A DNA stretch of 64,000 nt from Enterobacteria phage GEC-3S. A program made the position numbers and the translations under genes. Within the stretch, counting starts at the first letter, position 1, and every line of letters starts with the position of its first letter. This document shows, piece after piece, positions 7,498-23,112 of this stretch. The DNA lies in the sequence record HE978309; one strand, given 5' to 3'. The notes under the pieces were generated by a model. The model was not told the DNA's origin and did not search any database. It saw only the letters and a list, made by a program, of their open reading frames with translations.

Positions 7498-8257
7498 TGT
7501 CTCAATAAAACTTTATGCTGTTAATAACGTAACTAGCATGATTGATGCCATCTATAAGGAAGTTCCTTTATGGAAACCTACTATAAAGGGTGATAACGTT
7601 GTTATTCCTCGTTGTCCGTGGGTTAGTACCATAAATGACTATATGGATTTTGTGAGGGCATACGGGCAAAGCGTAGAAACAGAGTCTTTCGTGTATTGCT
7701 GGGAAGATTTTGATGGTATAACGATAGCTGGACACGATACAATATTAAAAAATGAGCCAATACCAGCTATAATCTGTGAGCCTAGACTCATGGGGCAATT
7801 TATTGATATGTCGCCTAATCTGATGGTTTTTAATTTCGAGTGGCAGACTAAGAGCAATGCTAAAGTTAAAAATTCATTTAGCAATGTGACATACACAACT
7901 ATTGATTTTGTTACTAAGCAGTATAATAAAATTATTGTTGGTAATGGGGATAACATTGCACACTTTGTTCATGGTGGCGCTTATGGCGATTTAACTTATA
8001 AGAATGCGTTTTTGGAAGGTTCTAAACTTGCCACAATAGAACAATATGATTCATATGCTACCGCCGTGTGTCACGGTAATTTTTCGTTGCGCCCCGGTAT
8101 GGTTATTCGATTCTTTGATGAGAAGCAACAAGCACGCAATGATTTTATTGTTGACGAAGTGGTGCATGAAATTAGCCGAGAGCAATCATTAACTCACCTG
8201 TATATGATCGGTAACAGCGAAGAATTACAGGAAGTCAAATTTGAAGGTAAGATATAA
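7475..8257 (+). CDS. 27: gp27 baseplate hub protein (short form, 260 aa)
   Basis: N- and C-terminal similarity to T4 gp27 (PNVSIKL..., ...VDEVVHEIS...THLYM); synteny between 51 and 28. Confidence 0.7.
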   Translation: MQRTGFPNVSIKLYAVNNVTSMIDAIYKEVPLWKPTIKGDNVVIPRCPWVSTINDYMDFVRAYGQSVETESFVYCWEDFDGITIAGHDTILKNEPIPAIICEPRLMGQFIDMSPNLMVFNFEWQTKSNAKVKNSFSNVTYTTIDFVTKQYNKIIVGNGDNIAHFVHGGAYGDLTYKNAFLEGSKLATIEQYDSYATAVCHGNFSLRPGMVIRFFDEKQQARNDFIVDEVVHEISREQSLTHLYMIGNSEELQEVKFEGKI

Positions 8258-15963: not shown

Positions 15964-16004
15964 TTTATATCCTCTAGTTGATAACCTATAAACCTATATT
16001 TATG

Positions 16005-16030
16005 AAAAAGGGGCTTAACGCCCCCTTTTA
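16005..16030 (-). terminator. rho-independent terminator
   Basis: hairpin GGGGC-GTTAAG-GCCCC(U) then U-run on minus strand. Confidence 0.45.
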
Positions 16031-16243
16031 TTATAATGCACCATCGAGCAATTGCTCTAAGGTGTATCCTGAATAGTCTTTTTCAATCAGGGTATATTTT
16101 CCTACTCGTTTAATACAACCGCGCATTTCCACGTATTCTGTGTAGTTGATGGTACGAGTTGTTCCATCTTCCAGTAATGCAGTACCGATTTCGTTAATGC
16201 GGTCATAAGTTACGTCGGTAATGATGATTTCGATGTTAGCCAT
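16031..16243 (-). CDS. hypothetical early protein (70 aa)
   Basis: ORF track; GGAGTATCAA RBS; promoter cassette upstream. Confidence 0.5.
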   Translation of the reverse strand: MANIEIIITDVTYDRINEIGTALLEDGTTRTINYTEYVEMRGCIKRVGKYTLIEKDYSGYTLEQLLDGAL

Positions 16244-18371: not shown

Positions 18372-18619
18372 GCTGCCCCCGTTGGTTTGATAGTAACAGA
18401 ATCTAAAAGACCTTTGTTAGCCAGTTCGCGGCAAGTTTTCAGATCCGCAACTTCCCAGCCAGCCGCAATCAGGTTATCAATCAGGCTGTTAGCAACTTCT
18501 TCGCTCATGAAAGAGCACTGTTTGCCGATGGTGTAGCGTACACGCTGTAATTTCAGTTTACGGAAGCCTTTAACGTTCAGGTCTTTAGCGATTTTCTTTG
18601 CGGTTTCGATGTTAGCCAT
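18368..18619 (-). CDS. hypothetical early protein (83 aa)
   Basis: ORF track; first gene after a promoter cassette; GGAGAATCAAAC RBS. Confidence 0.5.
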   Translation of the reverse strand: MANIETAKKIAKDLNVKGFRKLKLQRVRYTIGKQCSFMSEEVANSLIDNLIAAGWEVADLKTCRELANKGLLDSVTIKPTGAA

Positions 18620-18656
18620 TGTTTGATTCTCCTAAGTGGTATCTCGTCTTGATGGT

Positions 18657-18698
18657 TGTATTGTAGGGGAGTTATCCTCCCCTGTCAACACTTTTTAT
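18657..18698 (-). promoter_or_regulatory. early promoter cassette (PeSL-like)
   Basis: TTGACA, spacer GGGGAGGATAACTCCCC palindrome, TACAAT. Confidence 0.55.
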
Positions 18699-18702
18699 AA
18701 AA

Positions 18703-18870
18703 TTATTTGTTAATTTCTGGTGCGTTGCTAGGATAGTAACCTTCTTTAACTCCGAGGTATTTCGCAACCATCCCTACAATCTTCTGTGCTACTACAATGT
18801 CAAATTTCAGATAATCTTCGCCGTAGGTTTCAATGATATATGCTTCACATGCTGCTTTAGTCTCGAACAT
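18703..18870 (-). CDS. small protein, copy A of a duplicated gene (55 aa)
   Basis: MFETKAACEAYIIETYGEDYLKFDIVVAQKIVGMVAKYLGVKEGYYPSNAPEINK; about 85% nt identity to 21979..22146. Confidence 0.5.
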   Translation of the reverse strand: MFETKAACEAYIIETYGEDYLKFDIVVAQKIVGMVAKYLGVKEGYYPSNAPEINK

Positions 18871-18902
18871 TTTGATTCTCCTATATTTCGTTTCGGTATG
18901 GG

Positions 18903-18944
18903 TGTATTATAGGGGATCTCCCGATCCCCGTCAACAACTTTTTT
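18903..18944 (-). promoter_or_regulatory. early promoter cassette (PeSL-like)
   Basis: TTGACG, spacer GGGATCGGGAGATCCCC, TATAAT, conserved leader. Confidence 0.6.
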
Positions 18945-18948
18945 AAAA

Positions 18949-19230
18949 TTATTCGTGATTAGTTTCGATGTTGTGCATTTTGCACCAGTTCAGCCAATCG
19001 ACCAGGTCTTGATAGTTGATGCTTTTATCTGCTGCCATCGTTTTTGTCTTGATACCCATATGTGCGTTATGAGTAAGCATTTTTACAGTGAACTCAATTT
19101 TATCGCCTTTAGCTTTAACATCAACCAGTTTGGTCCACTGGCTACCAGCGCCGCGAATGTTCATGCCAACGATGTTTCCGATGTATGCTTCTTTGTTTTT
19201 CAGGATTTCGGTTGCTTTGATGAATTTCAT
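18949..19230 (-). CDS. hypothetical early protein (93 aa)
   Basis: ORF track; GGAGAATCAAA RBS. Confidence 0.5.
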   Translation of the reverse strand: MKFIKATEILKNKEAYIGNIVGMNIRGAGSQWTKLVDVKAKGDKIEFTVKMLTHNAHMGIKTKTMAADKSINYQDLVDWLNWCKMHNIETNHE

Positions 19231-19261
19231 TTTTGATTCTCCAGTTCGTTTCGGTATGGGT

Positions 19262-19303
19262 GTATTATGCTATGTTCTTACTTTGGTGTCAACAACTTTT
19301 TTA
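19262..19303 (-). promoter_or_regulatory. early promoter cassette (PeSL-like)
   Basis: TTGACA, 17-18 nt, CATAAT, conserved leader ACACCCATACCGAAACGAAC. Confidence 0.55.
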
Positions 19304-19570
19304 GATATTTTCAGAAATAAATTTTAAAACTTGACGTAAATGTTTCTCATCTTTGATAGTCGCCGGAAGTTCTTCTTTTACTTCCTGTGCAAGATAGATA
19401 TTTCCGTTCCAAGTGAAAGATCCGTCTTCGTTTACGCGATAGCTGAACATCCACTCGCAATCATTTTCGATTTCATATACACATAGAAGAGTATAATCTT
19501 CAAAGCTATTGATTTCAAGGTCGAAGCCGTGACGTTTTGCAAAGTTGGTAGTGGTTTTAGTCAGTGCCAT
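19301..19570 (-). CDS. hypothetical early protein (89 aa)
   Basis: ORF track; GGAGAATCAAAC RBS. Confidence 0.5.
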   Translation of the reverse strand: MALTKTTTNFAKRHGFDLEINSFEDYTLLCVYEIENDCEWMFSYRVNEDGSFTWNGNIYLAQEVKEELPATIKDEKHLRQVLKFISENI

Positions 19571-19606
19571 TGTTTGATTCTCCTAAGTGGTATCTCGTTT
19601 CGATGG

Positions 19607-19648
19607 GTGTATTATGCTATAGGCGTGATCTGGTGTCAATTCTTTTTT
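19607..19648 (-). promoter_or_regulatory. early promoter cassette (PeSL-like)
   Basis: TTGACA then CATAAT-like -10, conserved leader variant. Confidence 0.5.
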
Positions 19649-19659
19649 TAAATTTTATG

Positions 19660-19687
19660 CAATAAAAAAGCCGACGCTATGGTCGGC
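19660..19687 (-). terminator. rho-independent terminator
   Basis: hairpin AGCCGACC-AUAGC-GUCGGCU then UUUUUUAUU. Confidence 0.5.
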
Positions 19688-19695
19688 TAATAAAA

Positions 19696-20004
19696 TCATT
19701 TAGACAAATAATCATTCAGTGCAATCCGGTCGGCGTATGCTGGTGTTACGTCAATCGCAATCACTTTAACGCGTGCTTTCTTGCGACCTGGGTTTTCACG
19801 TAACCAGTGCTCATGACCGTGAACATTTTTATACTGCGATGCTTCTTCGAAGGTACGGATCGGACCTGGGTAATCAGCGTAAAGGATCTCTAGATCTTCG
19901 GTGATGTAAAAATATACATCGTAATTGCTGTTCTCTAGCTTAAGCAGAGACTTTCGGAACATTGGGAGATTTTCGCGGGTAAATTCAAAGATATTATCTT
20001 TCAT
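19696..20004 (-). CDS. HxHW-family small protein, paralog 1
   Basis: 102 aa; YDVYFYITEDLEILY...HGHEHW...VIAIDV. Confidence 0.55.
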   Translation of the reverse strand: MKDNIFEFTRENLPMFRKSLLKLENSNYDVYFYITEDLEILYADYPGPIRTFEEASQYKNVHGHEHWLRENPGRKKARVKVIAIDVTPAYADRIALNDYLSK

Positions 20005-20026
20005 AGTATTATCCTCAATAGTTGGA

Positions 20027-20049
20027 TGAAAAGGGGCGTTAACGCCCCC
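20027..20049 (-). terminator. hairpin, weak terminator
   Basis: GGGGCG-TTAA-CGCCCC with a short U-run; near-copy of the 16005 hairpin. Confidence 0.3.
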
Positions 20050-20054
20050 ATATA

Positions 20055-20342
20055 TTAAAACAGTCCTTCCTGTACACCGTAGTAGAGTTCGTCGCTGATA
20101 ATTTCATTAATGCGACGGTGTGCATATTCCTGATTTGCGAAGTTGTCAGCAAGTTCTATTTTAGTTTCGCCGTCATGAGTCCATTTAGTGATAACTTTAC
20201 CATCTGCAAATTTGAAGTTGAACTCTTTAGCTACTGCATCGCGTACCAGACGTGCAAACTTATTGTTGCGGATTGCATTGTCGGTTTCGTGTGCAGCGTG
20301 AGCAAATTTGTTAACTTTCAGAGTGATAGTGATGTATGCCAT
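20055..20342 (-). CDS. hypothetical early protein (95 aa), related to 23382..23693
   Basis: ORF track; shared segment ...RNNKFARLVRDAVAKEFNFKF vs ...LIREVRKALAKEFNTKI. Confidence 0.5.
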   Translation of the reverse strand: MAYITITLKVNKFAHAAHETDNAIRNNKFARLVRDAVAKEFNFKFADGKVITKWTHDGETKIELADNFANQEYAHRRINEIISDELYYGVQEGLF

Positions 20343-20385
20343 AATTTGATTCTCCTAGTTAGAAAGTGTATCTCGTTTCGATGGG

Positions 20386-20427
20386 GATATTATGCTATAT
20401 CCCCGATCCGGTGTCAACACTTTTTAT
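20386..20427 (-). promoter_or_regulatory. early promoter cassette (PeSL-like)
   Basis: TTGACA; -10 CATAAT lies inside hairpin GGGGATAT...ATATCCCC. Confidence 0.5.
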
Positions 20428-20702
20428 AAAATAATTTTTTGATATTTTTCTATGATGTTCGTGTAAGTCACATCAACCGCTAGCACTGTTGCTTCGAATC
20501 CACCGTTTAGCCAATGGCTATGATCATGGTCGTGAAAGAAACCTAGACCAGTACGAAGACCTTCTTTATATTCTGCGCGTACATTCAGTTTGTCGTCGAT
20601 AAACAGATAAAACCATGAATTTTTACTAGGATTGATGATACAACCTTTCAGATTAGGGAGAATATCACGACTAAGAATAAACTTATCACCTACTTTGAAC
20701 AT
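20424..20702 (-). CDS. HxHW-family small protein, paralog 2
   Basis: ORF track 20424..20717; start ATG with GAGGA RBS; WFYLFIDDKLNV...HDHDHSHW...VLAVDV. Confidence 0.55.
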   Translation of the reverse strand: MFKVGDKFILSRDILPNLKGCIINPSKNSWFYLFIDDKLNVRAEYKEGLRTGLGFFHDHDHSHWLNGGFEATVLAVDVTYTNIIEKYQKIIL

Positions 20703-20706
20703 AATA

Positions 20707-21027
20707 TTAGTCCTCACTTATAAGGTCAAACCAATTGTTTTTCGCATAATGCTTAATGCGTGCTTGATCTGCTTCCGCTGGTGATAGATTCCATGCAACC
20801 ACTACAACTTCTGACGCATCGTCATCAGTTTCCGATACCCAATGATTGTGATTCATACAGTTATTTGCTATCGAGTGAGCAAATGATTTCATCACTGGAG
20901 ACGTATAATCATAGTAACGGATTTTCAGATTTTCATCAACATACAAATAGATCGTATAAGGTTTATATTCAGTAACAAGTAACAGACAGTTACGCAATTC
21001 TGGGAAAATCTTTTTAGTTAATTTCAT
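20707..21027 (-). CDS. HxHW-family small protein, paralog 3
   Basis: 106 aa; YTIYLYVDENLKIRY...NHNHW...VVVAWNL. Confidence 0.55.
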   Translation of the reverse strand: MKLTKKIFPELRNCLLLVTEYKPYTIYLYVDENLKIRYYDYTSPVMKSFAHSIANNCMNHNHWVSETDDDASEVVVVAWNLSPAEADQARIKHYAKNNWFDLISED

Positions 21028-21229
21028 ATTCTAGTTCTCCGTAATACACGGTAATCCATTTTTCTTCATATTTTGTATCTTTCCAGCACACAATACCGTT
21101 TACTGTGCAATCTTTGGAATTGACGAATGATTCATATTGTTCCGCATCTTCCATCATTTCATGAGCGGTCTTTTCATCGAATATATCGCAGATCGCTTTA
21201 TATGCTCGATAATCTTTAAATTTGCTCAT
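21014..21229 (-). CDS. small protein, tandem duplicate (copy 1)
   Basis: MSKFKDYRAYKAICDIFDEKTAHEMMEDAEQYESF..., paralog of the adjacent upstream gene. Confidence 0.5.
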   Translation of the reverse strand: MSKFKDYRAYKAICDIFDEKTAHEMMEDAEQYESFVNSKDCTVNGIVCWKDTKYEEKWITVYYGELEYEIN

Positions 21230-21231
21230 AA

Positions 21232-21441
21232 TTAACACCACTCAAGAGTTTTTGAAAACACATCTATCCATTGTTGAGTATATGCGGTTTCTTTCCATGA
21301 TACAATACCAGTCGAATAATGGTTTTTGTTTCCAGAAAAGGACGGGCATTTTGATGCATCTTCCATCATCTTTTCGGCGAACTCTGGTTCGTATACTCGC
21401 AAGATCTGTTGATATGCTTTATAATCTTTAAACTTACTCAT
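21232..21441 (-). CDS. small protein, tandem duplicate (copy 2)
   Basis: MSKFKDYKAYQQILRVYEPEFAEKMMEDASKCPSF... Confidence 0.5.
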   Translation of the reverse strand: MSKFKDYKAYQQILRVYEPEFAEKMMEDASKCPSFSGNKNHYSTGIVSWKETAYTQQWIDVFSKTLEWC

Positions 21442-21722
21442 AACAACACCACCGATACATCGTAATCATTCGCGACCTTATCGGCTTCTTCAACCGACAT
21501 AATACCTTCTGCGACAATTGGCATAGGGTGATCGTGATTCCACCAATGGTCATGTATATCAATTTCAGTTTTGCCGGAAAATGAATCATGTTTGACGTTT
21601 TTCACTTTATACCCGATGTGACCGTCGTGGTCAATAAAGATATAGTTTCCGAAAATCGGTGTCTGTAAAATCATACCGAAAAATTTTTCTTTGTTGTTCG
21701 GGTCGAGTGTAATCATTTTCAT
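21438..21722 (-). CDS. HxHW-family small protein, paralog 4
   Basis: 94 aa; NYIFIDHDGHIGY...HDHWWNHDH. Confidence 0.5.
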   Translation of the reverse strand: MKMITLDPNNKEKFFGMILQTPIFGNYIFIDHDGHIGYKVKNVKHDSFSGKTEIDIHDHWWNHDHPMPIVAEGIMSVEEADKVANDYDVSVVLL

Positions 21723-21734
21723 AATATATTCCTC

Positions 21735-21914
21735 TTAGAAAGGGATGGTCATTTCTTGAGCTTGTACATTCTCGTTAGGATTAAACTTCATCCAACCGAT
21801 ATTGTCTACCAGCATATGCACATTTTTATCATATCCTACGTGAGTAGTCAACACTAAATGTGCTTTACATTCAACGATGATTTCCATGTACTTCTGAACT
21901 TCGATAGCTTTCAT
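21735..21914 (-). CDS. hypothetical small protein (59 aa)
   Basis: sub-60-aa ORF MKAIEVQKYMEIIVECKAHL...; GGAGAATCAAA RBS; promoter cassette upstream. Confidence 0.4.
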   Translation of the reverse strand: MKAIEVQKYMEIIVECKAHLVLTTHVGYDKNVHMLVDNIGWMKFNPNENVQAQEMTIPF

Positions 21915-21943
21915 TTTGATTCTCCGTTTGTTGTCTTGATGGG

Positions 21944-21985
21944 AGTATCTTACTACTCCCTTTAATCATTGTCAACGATTATTTG
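21944..21985 (-). promoter_or_regulatory. early promoter cassette (PeSL-like)
   Basis: TTGACA, spacer containing GGGAGTAGTAAGATACTCCC hairpin, weak -10. Confidence 0.45.
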
Positions 21986-22146
21986 TTAATTTCTGGTGCG
22001 TTGCTCGGATAGTAACCTTCTTTAACACCCAGATATTTTGCAACCATTCCGGTGATCTTCTGTGCTACTACGATATCGAATTTCAGGTAGTCTTCACCGT
22101 GGTTTGCTACAATGTATGCTTCGCATTCTGCTTTAGTCTGGAACAT
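21979..22146 (-). CDS. small protein, copy B of a duplicated gene (55 aa)
   Basis: ORF track 21979..22212; start at MFQTKAECEAY... with GGAGAATCAAAA RBS; duplicate of 18703..18870. Confidence 0.5.
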   Translation of the reverse strand: MFQTKAECEAYIVANHGEDYLKFDIVVAQKITGMVAKYLGVKEGYYPSNAPEINK

Positions 22147-22177
22147 TTTTGATTCTCCTATATCTCGTTGGTATGTG

Positions 22178-22219
22178 TGTAGTATAGGGGATCGGTGATC
22201 CCCTGTCAACAACTTTTTT
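22178..22219 (-). promoter_or_regulatory. early promoter cassette (PeSL-like)
   Basis: TTGACA, spacer GGGGATCACCGATCCCC, TATACT. Confidence 0.55.
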
Positions 22220-22526
22220 ATTCTTCATCTTCATTTTTATCTTTATATGCGTACTTCATAAATTTGTCTGCTACTTTGTCCGCGTTTTCAGGTTCTACGT
22301 CTGACGCTAGGACAACAGCTAGTTCGGTTTTGTCGTTTCCGTCATACCAATGATTATGAGTGTCGTTTTCTTCGATATAAAACGAATCATTTGGAGTTGT
22401 TCGACAATATACGTCTAAATTCCCATCGATATAAAAGATCCAATCCGAATACAAAATGATTGCTTTAGCCAGATTTTTATTGTCTCTTACAAAAGGTTCC
22501 GCGACAAATAGCTTAGTTTGTTCCAT
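22218..22526 (-). CDS. HxHW-family small protein, paralog 5
   Basis: ORF track 22218..22583; start at MEQTKLF... with GAGGAAAA RBS; WIFYIDGNLDVY...HNHW...AVVLASDV. Confidence 0.55.
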   Translation of the reverse strand: MEQTKLFVAEPFVRDNKNLAKAIILYSDWIFYIDGNLDVYCRTTPNDSFYIEENDTHNHWYDGNDKTELAVVLASDVEPENADKVADKFMKYAYKDKNEDEE

Positions 22527-22542
22527 AATATTTTCCTCAAAA

Positions 22543-22734
22543 TTATACAGCTTCGTAAACTTCCCAATGTTCAGCGCCAACACGCTTAACGAAAAGGTTT
22601 TCTTTGATGTTATTCATAAACGTCTGGATAGATTTAATGCGGTTGGAAGGTTTCCAGTCTTCGTTGGCATTGCGGCGATACATAATAACATTACCAGTTC
22701 GCTTATATTCAGCAACCATTTTAAGATCACACAT
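22543..22734 (-). CDS. hypothetical early protein (63 aa)
   Basis: ORF track; GAGGATAAT RBS. Confidence 0.45.
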   Translation of the reverse strand: MCDLKMVAEYKRTGNVIMYRRNANEDWKPSNRIKSIQTFMNNIKENLFVKRVGAEHWEVYEAV

Positions 22735-22779: not shown

Positions 22780-22821
22780 TGTTATGTTATATCACACAAA
22801 ATGGCGTGTCAATGCTTCTTT
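22780..22821 (-). promoter_or_regulatory. early promoter (sigma70-like)
   Basis: TTGACA, 17 nt, TAACAT; overlaps the 3' end of the upstream ORF. Confidence 0.4.
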
Positions 22822-23112
22822 TGCGGTTCCGCTAAGACTTTCGATCTCGCCTGGCATAACATCAACCGCCAGAACTTCGACAACATCCTCGGACCCTAAC
22901 CAGTGAGTATGGCCTTTGTAGAACTTGATAACCAGACTACCTTCCTCATCCCATTTAACGCTATCGCTAGCCCACCACACATCACCGTCGATAAAGTTGA
23001 TGTAAAGCACACTACGCCACATTGAATTAATTACTTTCAATACTGCGCCTTTCATCTCTTCCACGGTATGGTCTTCCATTTTGAAGACCTCACCTACCTG
23101 AACTTTTGCCAT
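22792..23112 (-). CDS. HxHW-family small protein, paralog 6
   Basis: 106 aa; VLYINFIDGDVWW...HTHW...VLAVDV. Confidence 0.55.
   Translation of the reverse strand: MAKVQVGEVFKMEDHTVEEMKGAVLKVINSMWRSVLYINFIDGDVWWASDSVKWDEEGSLVIKFYKGHTHWLGSEDVVEVLAVDVMPGEIESLSGTAKEALTRHFV

What the first reader, a model, noticed from the sequence alone, without database searches (positions are those of the whole stretch)
18703..22146. Dispersed duplicate of a 55-aa gene with about 85% nucleotide identity
18703..18870 and 21979..22146 encode nearly identical proteins (MFETKAACEAYIIETYGEDYLKFDIVVAQKIVGMVAKYLGVKEGYYPSNAPEINK versus MFQTKAECEAYIVANHGEDYLKFDIVVAQKITGMVAKYLGVKEGYYPSNAPEINK). Each sits after a promoter cassette, consistent with cassette-mediated duplication. 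The high nucleotide identity suggests a recent event or gene conversion.
Basis: seen in the sequence. Interest (0 to 1): 0.4.

Follow-up and report, generated by a model that had tools for sequence, protein, structure and literature searches.

The report
Old duplicated phage gene between promoter cassettes
Two copies of a 55-codon early gene of unknown function sit 3.3 kb apart in an RB49/Phi1-type T4-like coliphage, each flanked by the known promoter/stem-loop (PeSL) cassettes; the duplication is old, not recent, and related phages show the copies occasionally recombining with each other.

Summary
Window 18703-18870 and 21979-22146 (both minus strand) encode 55-aa proteins with 48/55 identical residues and 142/168 identical nucleotides (84.5%). 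They are the only direct repeat of 100 nt or more in the 64-kb window.

The window is a Krischvirus (98.5% identical to phage Phi1). The copies are Phi1 ORF191 and ORF205, in a hyperplastic region. Each is flanked on both sides by a PeSL cassette, the published vehicle of gene shuffling in RB49/Phi1 (Arbiol et al. 2010).

"Recent event" is refuted:
- dS is about 0.94 and dN/dS about 0.07.
- The A and B lineages each form their own clade in the 10 other two-copy genomes compared.
- Orthologues are 94-100% identical; paralogues are 83-90%.

Purifying selection on the protein, not homogenisation, keeps the copies alike.

Ectopic exchange does occur sporadically:
- Short paralogue-type patches are present in PTE-Eco09, Brandy, Whisky and Cognac.
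- Two independent 3.3-kb deletions fuse the two loci in Cognac and FL04.
- Copy A is lost by PeSL-by-PeSL recombination in JK32, Brandy, UPWr_E1 and MIZ4.
- About 50 of 57 Krischvirus records keep both copies.

The protein is a rare phage-only ORFan (PHROG 8009) with no informative fold match. This is an ordinary example of a known mechanism, of low to moderate interest.

The parts
18703..18870 (-). Copy A. A 55-codon ORF, orthologue of Phi1 ORF191 / RB49 ORF191c, in PHROG 8009.
   Evidence: ORF list. Phi1 annotation. PHROG hit E 1.7e-37. The A lineage is 96-100% identical in nucleotides across 13 loci.
21979..22146 (-). Copy B. A 55-codon ORF starting at the ATG at 22146, orthologue of Phi1 ORF205 / RB49 ORF205c, in PHROG 8009.
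   Evidence: E 1.2e-38. The B lineage is 94-100% identical across 16 loci. The TTG-started 77-aa reading is only the mechanical ORF extension.
18871..18948 (-). PeSL 193/191, in front of copy A. It has an AT-rich tract, -35 TTGACG, the stem-loop GGGGATC..GATCCCC, -10 TATAAT, and a 5' UTR with GGAG.
   Evidence: Promoter scan 11/12. Fold. PeSL family D1. PeSL definition.
18620..18702 (-). PeSL 191/190, downstream of copy A and in front of ORF190.
   Evidence: Promoter 11/12 at 18688-18660. Stem-loop fold z = -3.7.
22147..22217 (-). PeSL 206/205, in front of copy B. In Phi1 this element was cloned and gave about 13,000 Miller units.
   Evidence: Promoter 11/12 at 22209-22181. Fold. Experimental promoter activity reported in PMC2839356.
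21915..21978 (-). PeSL 205/204, downstream of copy B. The -35 TTGACA starts 4 nt after the stop codon, and the stem-loop overlaps the -10 TAAGAT.
   Evidence: Promoter 10/12 at 21975-21947. Fold z = -3.8.
18871..21978 (-). Intervening block, holding the equivalents of the 10 annotated Phi1 ORFs 193-204. It is removed together with one copy-length (3,276 nt in all) in phages Cognac and FL04, by recombination between the two repeat units.
   Evidence: Gene tables. BLAST co-linearity. Junction alignments.

Best explanation
The two ORFs are old paralogues of a small early accessory gene of a Krischvirus (an RB49/Phi1-type T4-like coliphage). Each is a single-gene cassette bounded on both sides by PeSL promoter/stem-loop elements, in the hyperplastic region between alt and the gene 30 ligase.

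Inferred origin: one cassette, probably the one at the ORF191 site, was copied to a second PeSL site by homologous recombination within PeSLs. This could have been re-integration of an excised PeSL mini-circle, or unequal exchange between PeSLs. It happened before the sampled Krischvirus isolates diverged.

Shown here: both copies have since been kept as protein-coding genes under strong purifying selection. That selection, not recency or homogenisation, is why they are still 85% identical.

Also shown: the pair, together with its PeSLs, is still a substrate for the phage's homology-driven recombination. Related genomes contain short non-allelic conversion patches. They contain two independent deletions of the 3.3 kb between the copies, each leaving one gene in a hybrid setting. 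They also contain PeSL-by-PeSL excisions of copy A.

The protein's biochemical role is not known. The most likely role, inferred only from context, is a dispensable early host-directed factor expressed from a strong sigma-70 promoter immediately after infection. The two copies would give either extra dosage or slightly different specificities. All 7 amino-acid differences lie in residues 3-32, mostly in helix 1.
For: Identity of the locus:
- The region is 98.5% identical to Phi1, and the copies are ORF191 and ORF205.

Age and selection:
- dS = 0.94, dN = 0.064, dN/dS = 0.07.
- Mean dS is 0.056 within the A lineage, 0.114 within B, and 0.89 between A and B.
- Within-genome paralogue identity is 84.5-85.7% in 10 of 11 two-copy genomes, the window included.
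- A and B each have 100% NJ bootstrap support.
- Both copies sit at the same positions in RB49, JSE, ELT4, Whisky, 011D4, FL20, PTE-Eco09 and KFS-EC.

Cassette structure:
- PeSLs lie on all four flanks.
- The published mechanism includes a sequenced RB49 mini-circle carrying ORFs 191-194, and measured promoter activity for PeSL206/205.

Ongoing exchange:
- Six consecutive A-type sites (nt 51-75) occur in the B copies of Brandy and PTE-Eco09. If six minority sites fell at random, the chance that all are contiguous is 9e-5.
- PTE-Eco09 copy A has a B-type 5' UTR and B-type states at its first 3 diagnostic sites. Whisky copy A has a B-type UTR plus 2 B-type sites.
- The Cognac gene has the B upstream flank, an A body with a B-type 3' patch, and the A downstream flank.
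- The FL04 junction lies inside the PeSL stem-loop, so it is a separate event.
- The empty A site in JK32, Brandy and UPWr_E1 holds one chimeric PeSL, with the crossover between -10 and the Shine-Dalgarno sequence. The paper's H mini-circle junction lay between the -10 and the ATG.
- The MIZ4 deletion is bounded by PeSLs.

Copy number:
- 119 places in 69 records. After removing 12 single-copy siphovirus records, this gives about 50 two-copy and 7 one-copy Krischvirus records.

Likely ancestral site:
- In an unrelated phage contig (L020), the ORF191 homologue directly follows an ORF194 homologue.
- Against outgroups, B carries 4 derived residues and A carries 1.
Against: - The original duplication event itself left no diagnostic trace. 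The flanking PeSLs are no more alike than unrelated PeSLs, and neighbouring genes are not paralogous. PeSL mediation of the origin is therefore an inference from context.
- A+B monophyly relative to the L020 homologue has only 61% bootstrap support, against 34% for A+L020. Two separate acquisitions are not excluded.
- The exchange evidence comes from other isolates' assemblies, not from this window.
Confidence: 0.8

Rival explanations
1. Recent duplication, or continuous homogenising gene conversion, keeps the two copies alike.
For: Nucleotide identity of 85% looks high for a dispersed repeat. Conversion patches do exist in a few isolates. PTE-Eco09's copies reach 89% identity.
Against: dS is 0.94, close to saturation, and 16 of the 23 differing codons are synonymous. 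Orthologues are 94-100% identical against 83-90% for paralogues. A and B are reciprocally monophyletic at 100% bootstrap. The window's own copies carry no paralogue-type run.
Confidence: 0.04
2. The copies are not an in-genome duplication but two independent acquisitions. Related versions of the same mobile ORFan would have entered two different PeSL sites from different donor phages, for example on PeSL mini-circles during co-infection.
For: The family moves between unrelated phages. Homologues are 72-74% identical in Swiduovirus-type siphoviruses, 42% in Sashavirus, and 85% in an unknown phage contig. A+B monophyly has only 61% support, with A+L020 at 34%. The PeSL model explicitly allows insertion from circles.
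Against: A and B are each other's best match (87% aa, against 85% and 78% to L020). No known donor lineage carries a B-type sequence outside Krischvirus.
Confidence: 0.14
3. The repeat is not two real genes. It would be a non-coding repeated element or a chance similarity.
For: The ORFs are very short, no function or domain is known, and they lie in a repeat-rich region.
Against: dN/dS is 0.07. Both have a strong Shine-Dalgarno sequence and an ATG behind near-consensus promoters. Both frames are intact in all but one of 29 copies examined. The confident predicted fold has pLDDT 91. Protein-level homologues exist in other phage families. No Rfam family matches.
Confidence: 0.02

Closest known systems
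PeSL + ORFan cassettes of phages RB49/Phi1 (Arbiol, Comeau, Kutateladze, Adamia, Krisch 2010, Genome Biol Evol 2:140, PMC2839356; extended in PMC4122927)
   Same: It is the same genus and the same hyperplastic region. The elements match: an AT-rich tract, a sigma-70 consensus promoter, a GGGG..CCCC stem-loop and a Shine-Dalgarno sequence. ORF191 lay on a sequenced mini-circle, and PeSL206/205 was the promoter assayed. Single ORFs are gained and lost by recombination between flanking PeSLs.
   Different: The main texts of both papers describe insertion, deletion and replacement, but contain no mention of paralogues or gene conversion, and no mention of gene duplication. The supplements were not available. 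Here the same cassette content is present twice. The coding repeat itself, not only the PeSLs, serves as the recombination substrate, as in the Cognac chimera and the conversion patches.
Morons of lambdoid and other siphoviruses (Hendrix et al. 2000, as discussed in PMC2839356)
   Same: In swi2, Sasha and related siphoviruses the homologue is a small gene on the strand opposite to the neighbouring terminase gene. In swi2 and in contig L021 a sigma-70-type promoter precedes it, and in L021 also a terminator.
   Different: In the Krischvirus the flanks are conserved repeated cassettes that themselves recombine. In the siphoviruses the gene is coupled to a conserved 70-aa partner (PHROG 5305) that is absent here.
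Deletions between short direct repeats in T4 hyperplastic regions, and T4 homologous recombination needing about 50 bp (Mosig et al. 1998 and Singer et al. 1982, as cited in PMC2839356)
   Same: A deletion of a block of small non-essential early ORFs lying between direct repeats.
   Different: The repeats here are 168-240 nt of diverged (85%) gene plus cassette rather than short GGGC-type motifs. Nothing here tests which recombination proteins act.
Integron gene cassettes (the analogy drawn by Arbiol et al.)
   Same: Promoter-associated single-ORF cassettes, circular intermediates, and targeted insertion sites.
   Different: No integrase or attC-type site is present. By the published model, recombination is homology-driven.

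Membership tests
PeSL + ORFan cassette (Arbiol et al. 2010) | Near-consensus sigma-70 promoter (TTGACA-N17-TATAAT) with an AT-rich upstream tract, immediately 5' of the ORF | tested here: met
   Copy A scores 11/12 and copy B 11/12. The downstream cassettes score 11/12 and 10/12.
PeSL + ORFan cassette (Arbiol et al. 2010) | Stable G/C stem-loop (GGGG..CCCC) within or overlapping the promoter | tested here: met
   Stem-loops are predicted in all four flanking elements. In both upstream elements and in PeSL191/190 they lie between -35 and -10; in PeSL205/204 the stem-loop overlaps the -10.
PeSL + ORFan cassette (Arbiol et al. 2010) | Location in a hyperplastic region of a T4-type genome, in front of ORFs of unknown function | tested here: met
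   The copies lie between alt and the gene 30 ligase in a Krischvirus. All neighbours are hypothetical proteins or PHROGs of unknown function. There are 11 PeSL-like elements between 16.2 and 23.8 kb.
PeSL + ORFan cassette (Arbiol et al. 2010) | Presence/absence polymorphism between close relatives, with a single chimeric PeSL at the empty site | tested here: met
   JK32, Brandy and UPWr_E1 lack copy A and carry one PeSL. Its 5' part matches PeSL193/191 and its 3' part matches PeSL191/190.
PeSL + ORFan cassette (Arbiol et al. 2010) | Promoter and terminator activity; formation of circular excision products | not testable with these tools
   The paper reports these for PeSL206/205 (promoter), PeSL211/210 (terminator) and the RB49 ORF191-194 circle. 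They were not re-tested here, and not for this isolate.
PHROG 8009 (phage protein family of unknown function) | Full-length match to the family profile | tested here: met
   E = 1.7e-37 and 1.2e-38, covering positions 1-55 of 55.
Non-allelic (ectopic) gene conversion between paralogues | Contiguous runs of paralogue-type states at diagnostic sites inside an otherwise own-type copy | tested here: met
   This holds in related genomes only. The run is 6 of 26 sites in Brandy B and PTE-Eco09 B, and 3 sites in PTE-Eco09 A and in Cognac. Brandy has no A copy, so read mis-mapping cannot explain its patch. The window's own copies show no such run.
Recent segmental duplication | Low synonymous divergence; homology extending into flanks; lineage-specific presence | tested here: not met
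   dS is 0.94. Homology specific to the pair ends at the stop codon, and upstream it does not exceed the generic PeSL similarity. The pair is present across the genus.
Integron cassette | Tyrosine-recombinase integrase with attI/attC sites | not tested
   No recombinase was searched for here. According to the paper, none beyond the T4-type recombination machinery has been identified in RB49/Phi1.

The most novel reading that the evidence does not exclude
The ORF191/ORF205 pair would be the first natural example of duplicative transposition by the PeSL mini-circle pathway: a circle re-integrating at a second PeSL while the donor copy is retained. The resulting diverged direct repeat would then act as a recurrent recombination 'handle' that switches a 3.3-kb, 10-gene accessory block in and out of Krischvirus populations. 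The two protein copies would have diverged in helix 1 to recognise different host targets.
Probability: 0.15. Interest if true: 0.45.

Novelty: new member of a known kind. Interest (0 to 1): 0.25.

Why it matters
If the reading is right, it adds a duplication outcome to the published PeSL shuffling model, which describes insertion, deletion and replacement. It also shows, from natural isolates, that a diverged 168-nt coding repeat is enough for T4-type recombination to make conversion patches and kilobase deletions in a hyperplastic region. That is useful for understanding how accessory gene content of therapeutic coliphages drifts. It does not reveal a new kind of system, and the protein's function remains unknown.

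Tried and rejected
- Function searches led nowhere. Pfam gave no hit at E up to 10. PADLOC gave none. PHROGs gave only an unknown-function family.
- An exhaustive profile search of 1.84 billion representatives gave only 9 hits. Four of those are repeat-type matches in long proteins.
- The scan of bacterial genomes gave only weak hits (31-45% identity) in Acidimicrobiales and similar metagenome-assembled genomes, plus one 15-residue match at 67%. I regard these as spurious.
- I looked for the siphovirus 70-aa partner gene in the window. The only hit lies antisense inside a 577-aa gene and was rejected.
- I tested whether neighbouring genes were co-duplicated. Inspection of the translations shows no similarity between ORF190 and ORF204, or between ORF193 and ORF206.
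- I tested whether the upstream PeSLs are specifically related. They are not.
- Rfam found nothing in 15.5-25 kb.
- A literature search for the locus tags found no papers. The supplements of the PeSL paper are not held.
Full report
**Observation**

- They share 142 of 168 nucleotides (84.5%) without gaps, and 48 of 55 residues (BLASTP E = 2e-36).
- Of the 23 codons that differ, 16 are synonymous and 7 are not.
- All 7 amino-acid changes lie in residues 3-32. Residues 33-55 are identical.
- With a 12-nt seed and a 100-nt minimum, this pair is the only direct repeat in the 64-kb window.

**What the locus is**

The 4.2 kb around the pair is 98.5% identical to Escherichia phage Phi1, and 90-98% identical to the other listed whole-region matches, all of them Krischvirus (RB49-like, T4-type Straboviridae).
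- Copy A is Phi1 ORF191 and copy B is Phi1 ORF205. Both are annotated as hypothetical proteins.
- They lie in the block of small leftward genes between alt and the gene 30 DNA ligase.

This is the hyperplastic region in which Arbiol et al. 2010 (PMC2839356) defined PeSLs (promoter-early stem-loops). A PeSL is a cassette of roughly 70-100 bp containing an AT-rich tract, a consensus sigma-70 promoter, a GGGG..CCCC stem-loop and a Shine-Dalgarno sequence. PeSLs recombine with one another to insert, delete or replace single ORFs, and they produce mini-circles.

Two of the paper's experiments touch this pair directly:
- The PeSL in front of ORF205 was the one wild-type PeSL clone assayed, at about 13,000 Miller units.
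- A sequenced RB49 mini-circle carried ORFs 191-194.

Searches of the main texts of this paper and its 2014 sequel found no mention of paralogues or gene conversion, and no mention of gene duplication. The supplements were not available. No paper in the library names these locus tags.

**Anatomy**

Each copy is bracketed by PeSLs on both sides.
- Near-consensus promoters lie at 18934-18906 and 22209-22181 (upstream of A and B).
- Further promoters lie at 18688-18660 and 21975-21947 (downstream of A and B).
- Each has a predicted stem-loop.
- Eleven such elements lie between 16.2 and 23.8 kb.

Homology specific to the pair ends one base after the stop codon. Upstream it does not exceed the similarity that any two PeSLs share. 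The A PeSL is 83% identical to the B PeSL, but 90% and 86% identical to PeSLs in front of unrelated genes. The unit that is truly duplicated is therefore the ORF alone, sitting between generic cassettes.

**Age and selection**

Nei-Gojobori estimates for the window's pair are dS = 0.94, dN = 0.064 and dN/dS = 0.07.

I extracted 29 copies from 18 loci: the window, 16 GenBank Krischvirus regions and one further IMG/VR viral contig.
- Orthologues are 94-100% identical (mean dS 0.056 for A and 0.114 for B).
- Paralogues are 83-90% identical (mean dS 0.89).
- Within-genome identity is 84.5-85.7% in 10 of 11 two-copy genomes.
- A and B each have 100% bootstrap support.
- Both copies sit in the same positions in every two-copy genome.

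The duplication therefore predates the divergence of the sampled genus. It is not recent. The copies stay alike because the protein is constrained.

**Ongoing exchange, seen in relatives**

Scoring the 26 sites that differ between the A and B consensus sequences shows clustered paralogue-type runs.
- The B copies of Brandy and PTE-Eco09 carry six consecutive A-type sites (nt 51-75). Six randomly placed minority sites would all be contiguous with probability 9e-5.
- Brandy has no A copy at all, so read mis-mapping cannot explain its patch.
- PTE-Eco09's A copy has a B-type 5' UTR and B-type states at its first three diagnostic sites.
- Whisky's A copy has a B-type UTR and two B-type sites.

Two phages have a single gene, with everything between the two loci missing (3,276 nt, 10 annotated Phi1 ORFs).
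- In Cognac the upstream flank, PeSL and UTR are B-type. The gene body is A-type with a B-type patch near the 3' end. The downstream flank is A-type.
- In FL04 the switch lies inside the PeSL stem-loop.
- The two junctions differ, so these are independent events.

Copy A alone is missing from JK32, Brandy and UPWr_E1.
- The site there holds one chimeric PeSL, with the crossover between the -10 and the Shine-Dalgarno sequence.
- The paper's H mini-circle junction lay between the -10 and the ATG, and its L junction between the Shine-Dalgarno sequence and the -10.

Other variants:
- MIZ4 has lost ORF186-191 through PeSL exchanges.
- FL20's A copy has a premature stop at codon 45.

From the tblastn counts (69 records, 119 places, 12 single-copy siphovirus records), about 50 Krischvirus records have two copies, 7 have one and none has three.

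**The protein**

Both copies match PHROG 8009 (unknown function) over their full length.
- There is no Pfam or PADLOC hit.
- The family is rare and phage-only. A word-indexed search of 5.8 billion proteins gave five clusters.
- An exhaustive profile search of 1.84 billion representatives gave nine hits, four of them repeat-type matches in long proteins.
- No credible bacterial locus was found.

Homologues occur in unrelated phages:
- Swiduovirus-type siphoviruses at 72-74% identity, and Sashavirus at 42%.
- In both, the gene is a small one on the strand opposite to the neighbouring terminase large-subunit gene.
- In swi2, Sasha and the three metagenomic siphovirus-like contigs it is followed by an overlapping, conserved partner of about 70 aa (PHROG 5305) that the window lacks.

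In an unidentified phage contig (L020), a homologue 85% identical to A directly follows a homologue of ORF194. Against outgroups, B carries four derived residues and A carries one. Together these points suggest that the ORF191 site is the older one. This is an inference, not a demonstration.

**Rivals**

- Recent duplication or homogenising conversion is contradicted by dS, the tree and synteny.
- Two independent acquisitions of a mobile ORFan cannot be excluded. A+B monophyly relative to L020 has only 61% bootstrap support.
- A non-coding or chance repeat is excluded by dN/dS, the translation signals, conservation and the cross-family protein homologues.

**Verdict**

The 'recent' inference is wrong. 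'Gene conversion' is true only as a sporadic process seen in other isolates.

What this analysis adds is modest:
- a duplicated PeSL cassette, which the PeSL papers' main texts do not mention;
- natural evidence that the diverged repeat drives conversion patches and recurrent 3.3-kb deletions.

I rate it a new member of a known kind, with interest of about 0.25.

Noticed in passing
window 19696-20004, 20424-20717, 20707-21027, 21438-21722, 22218-22583, 22792-23112 (all minus strand): Six divergent paralogues of 92-106 aa (21-32% identity) share an invariant H-x-H-W motif and a similar C-terminal 'V.A.DV.P.EAD' stretch. They lie between and around the two copies. None passes a Pfam threshold. 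The one scanned against PHROGs matches an unknown-function family. This is an older and larger gene-family expansion in the same hyperplastic region.
   Followed up: partly
window 21014-21241 and 21232-21441 (minus strand): These adjacent ORFs (Phi1 ORF201/ORF202) are tandem paralogues, both starting MSKFKDY. They share 72% nucleotide identity over 88 nt at their 5' ends.
   Followed up: no
L004 3001-3358; L005 1992-2386; L021-L023 4001-4358: In siphoviruses the 51-62-aa homologue is always followed by an overlapping, conserved ~70-aa gene (MxxNY[IM]PKCL..., PHROG 5305). This looks like a two-gene module. In swi2 and Sasha it sits beside the terminase large-subunit gene on the opposite strand. 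The partner is absent from the Krischvirus window.
   Followed up: partly
L020 4723-5165 (Logan SRR5584643 contig): An unidentified phage contig carries homologues of ORF194 (41% aa) and ORF191 (85% aa) as an overlapping pair. A terminator plus a sigma-70 promoter lies upstream, and a PeSL-like promoter lies downstream. Apart from one weak match (67% identity) of the ORF194-homologue stretch to Pectobacterium phage POP12, no other part of the contig matched in the listed hits.
   Followed up: partly
L017 1037-1171 (phage FL20): Copy A of FL20 has a premature stop at codon 45 (Tyr to stop) and is annotated as a 135-nt CDS. This may be a copy beginning to decay.
   Followed up: no
L003 about 7600-7800 (IMG/VR contig 3300045988_033703): This Krischvirus-like contig lacks window 18531-20501, including copy A. 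The junction lies inside ORF199-like and ORF190-like coding sequence rather than in PeSLs, so this looks like a non-PeSL deletion.
   Followed up: no
window 16002-16036 and 20026-20060: A GC-rich hairpin resembling an intrinsic terminator (GGGGCGTTAACGCCCC) is present twice at 83% identity, downstream of two different leftward genes.
   Followed up: no
window 18868-18934; site 46 of copy A (codon 16): The window's copy A has Tyr16, where most A copies (and the B copies) have His16. Its 5' UTR has an extra 'AT' (GAAATATAGGAG against GAAATAGGAG), which makes it resemble the B-type UTR. This may be a very short exchange or an independent indel.
   Followed up: no
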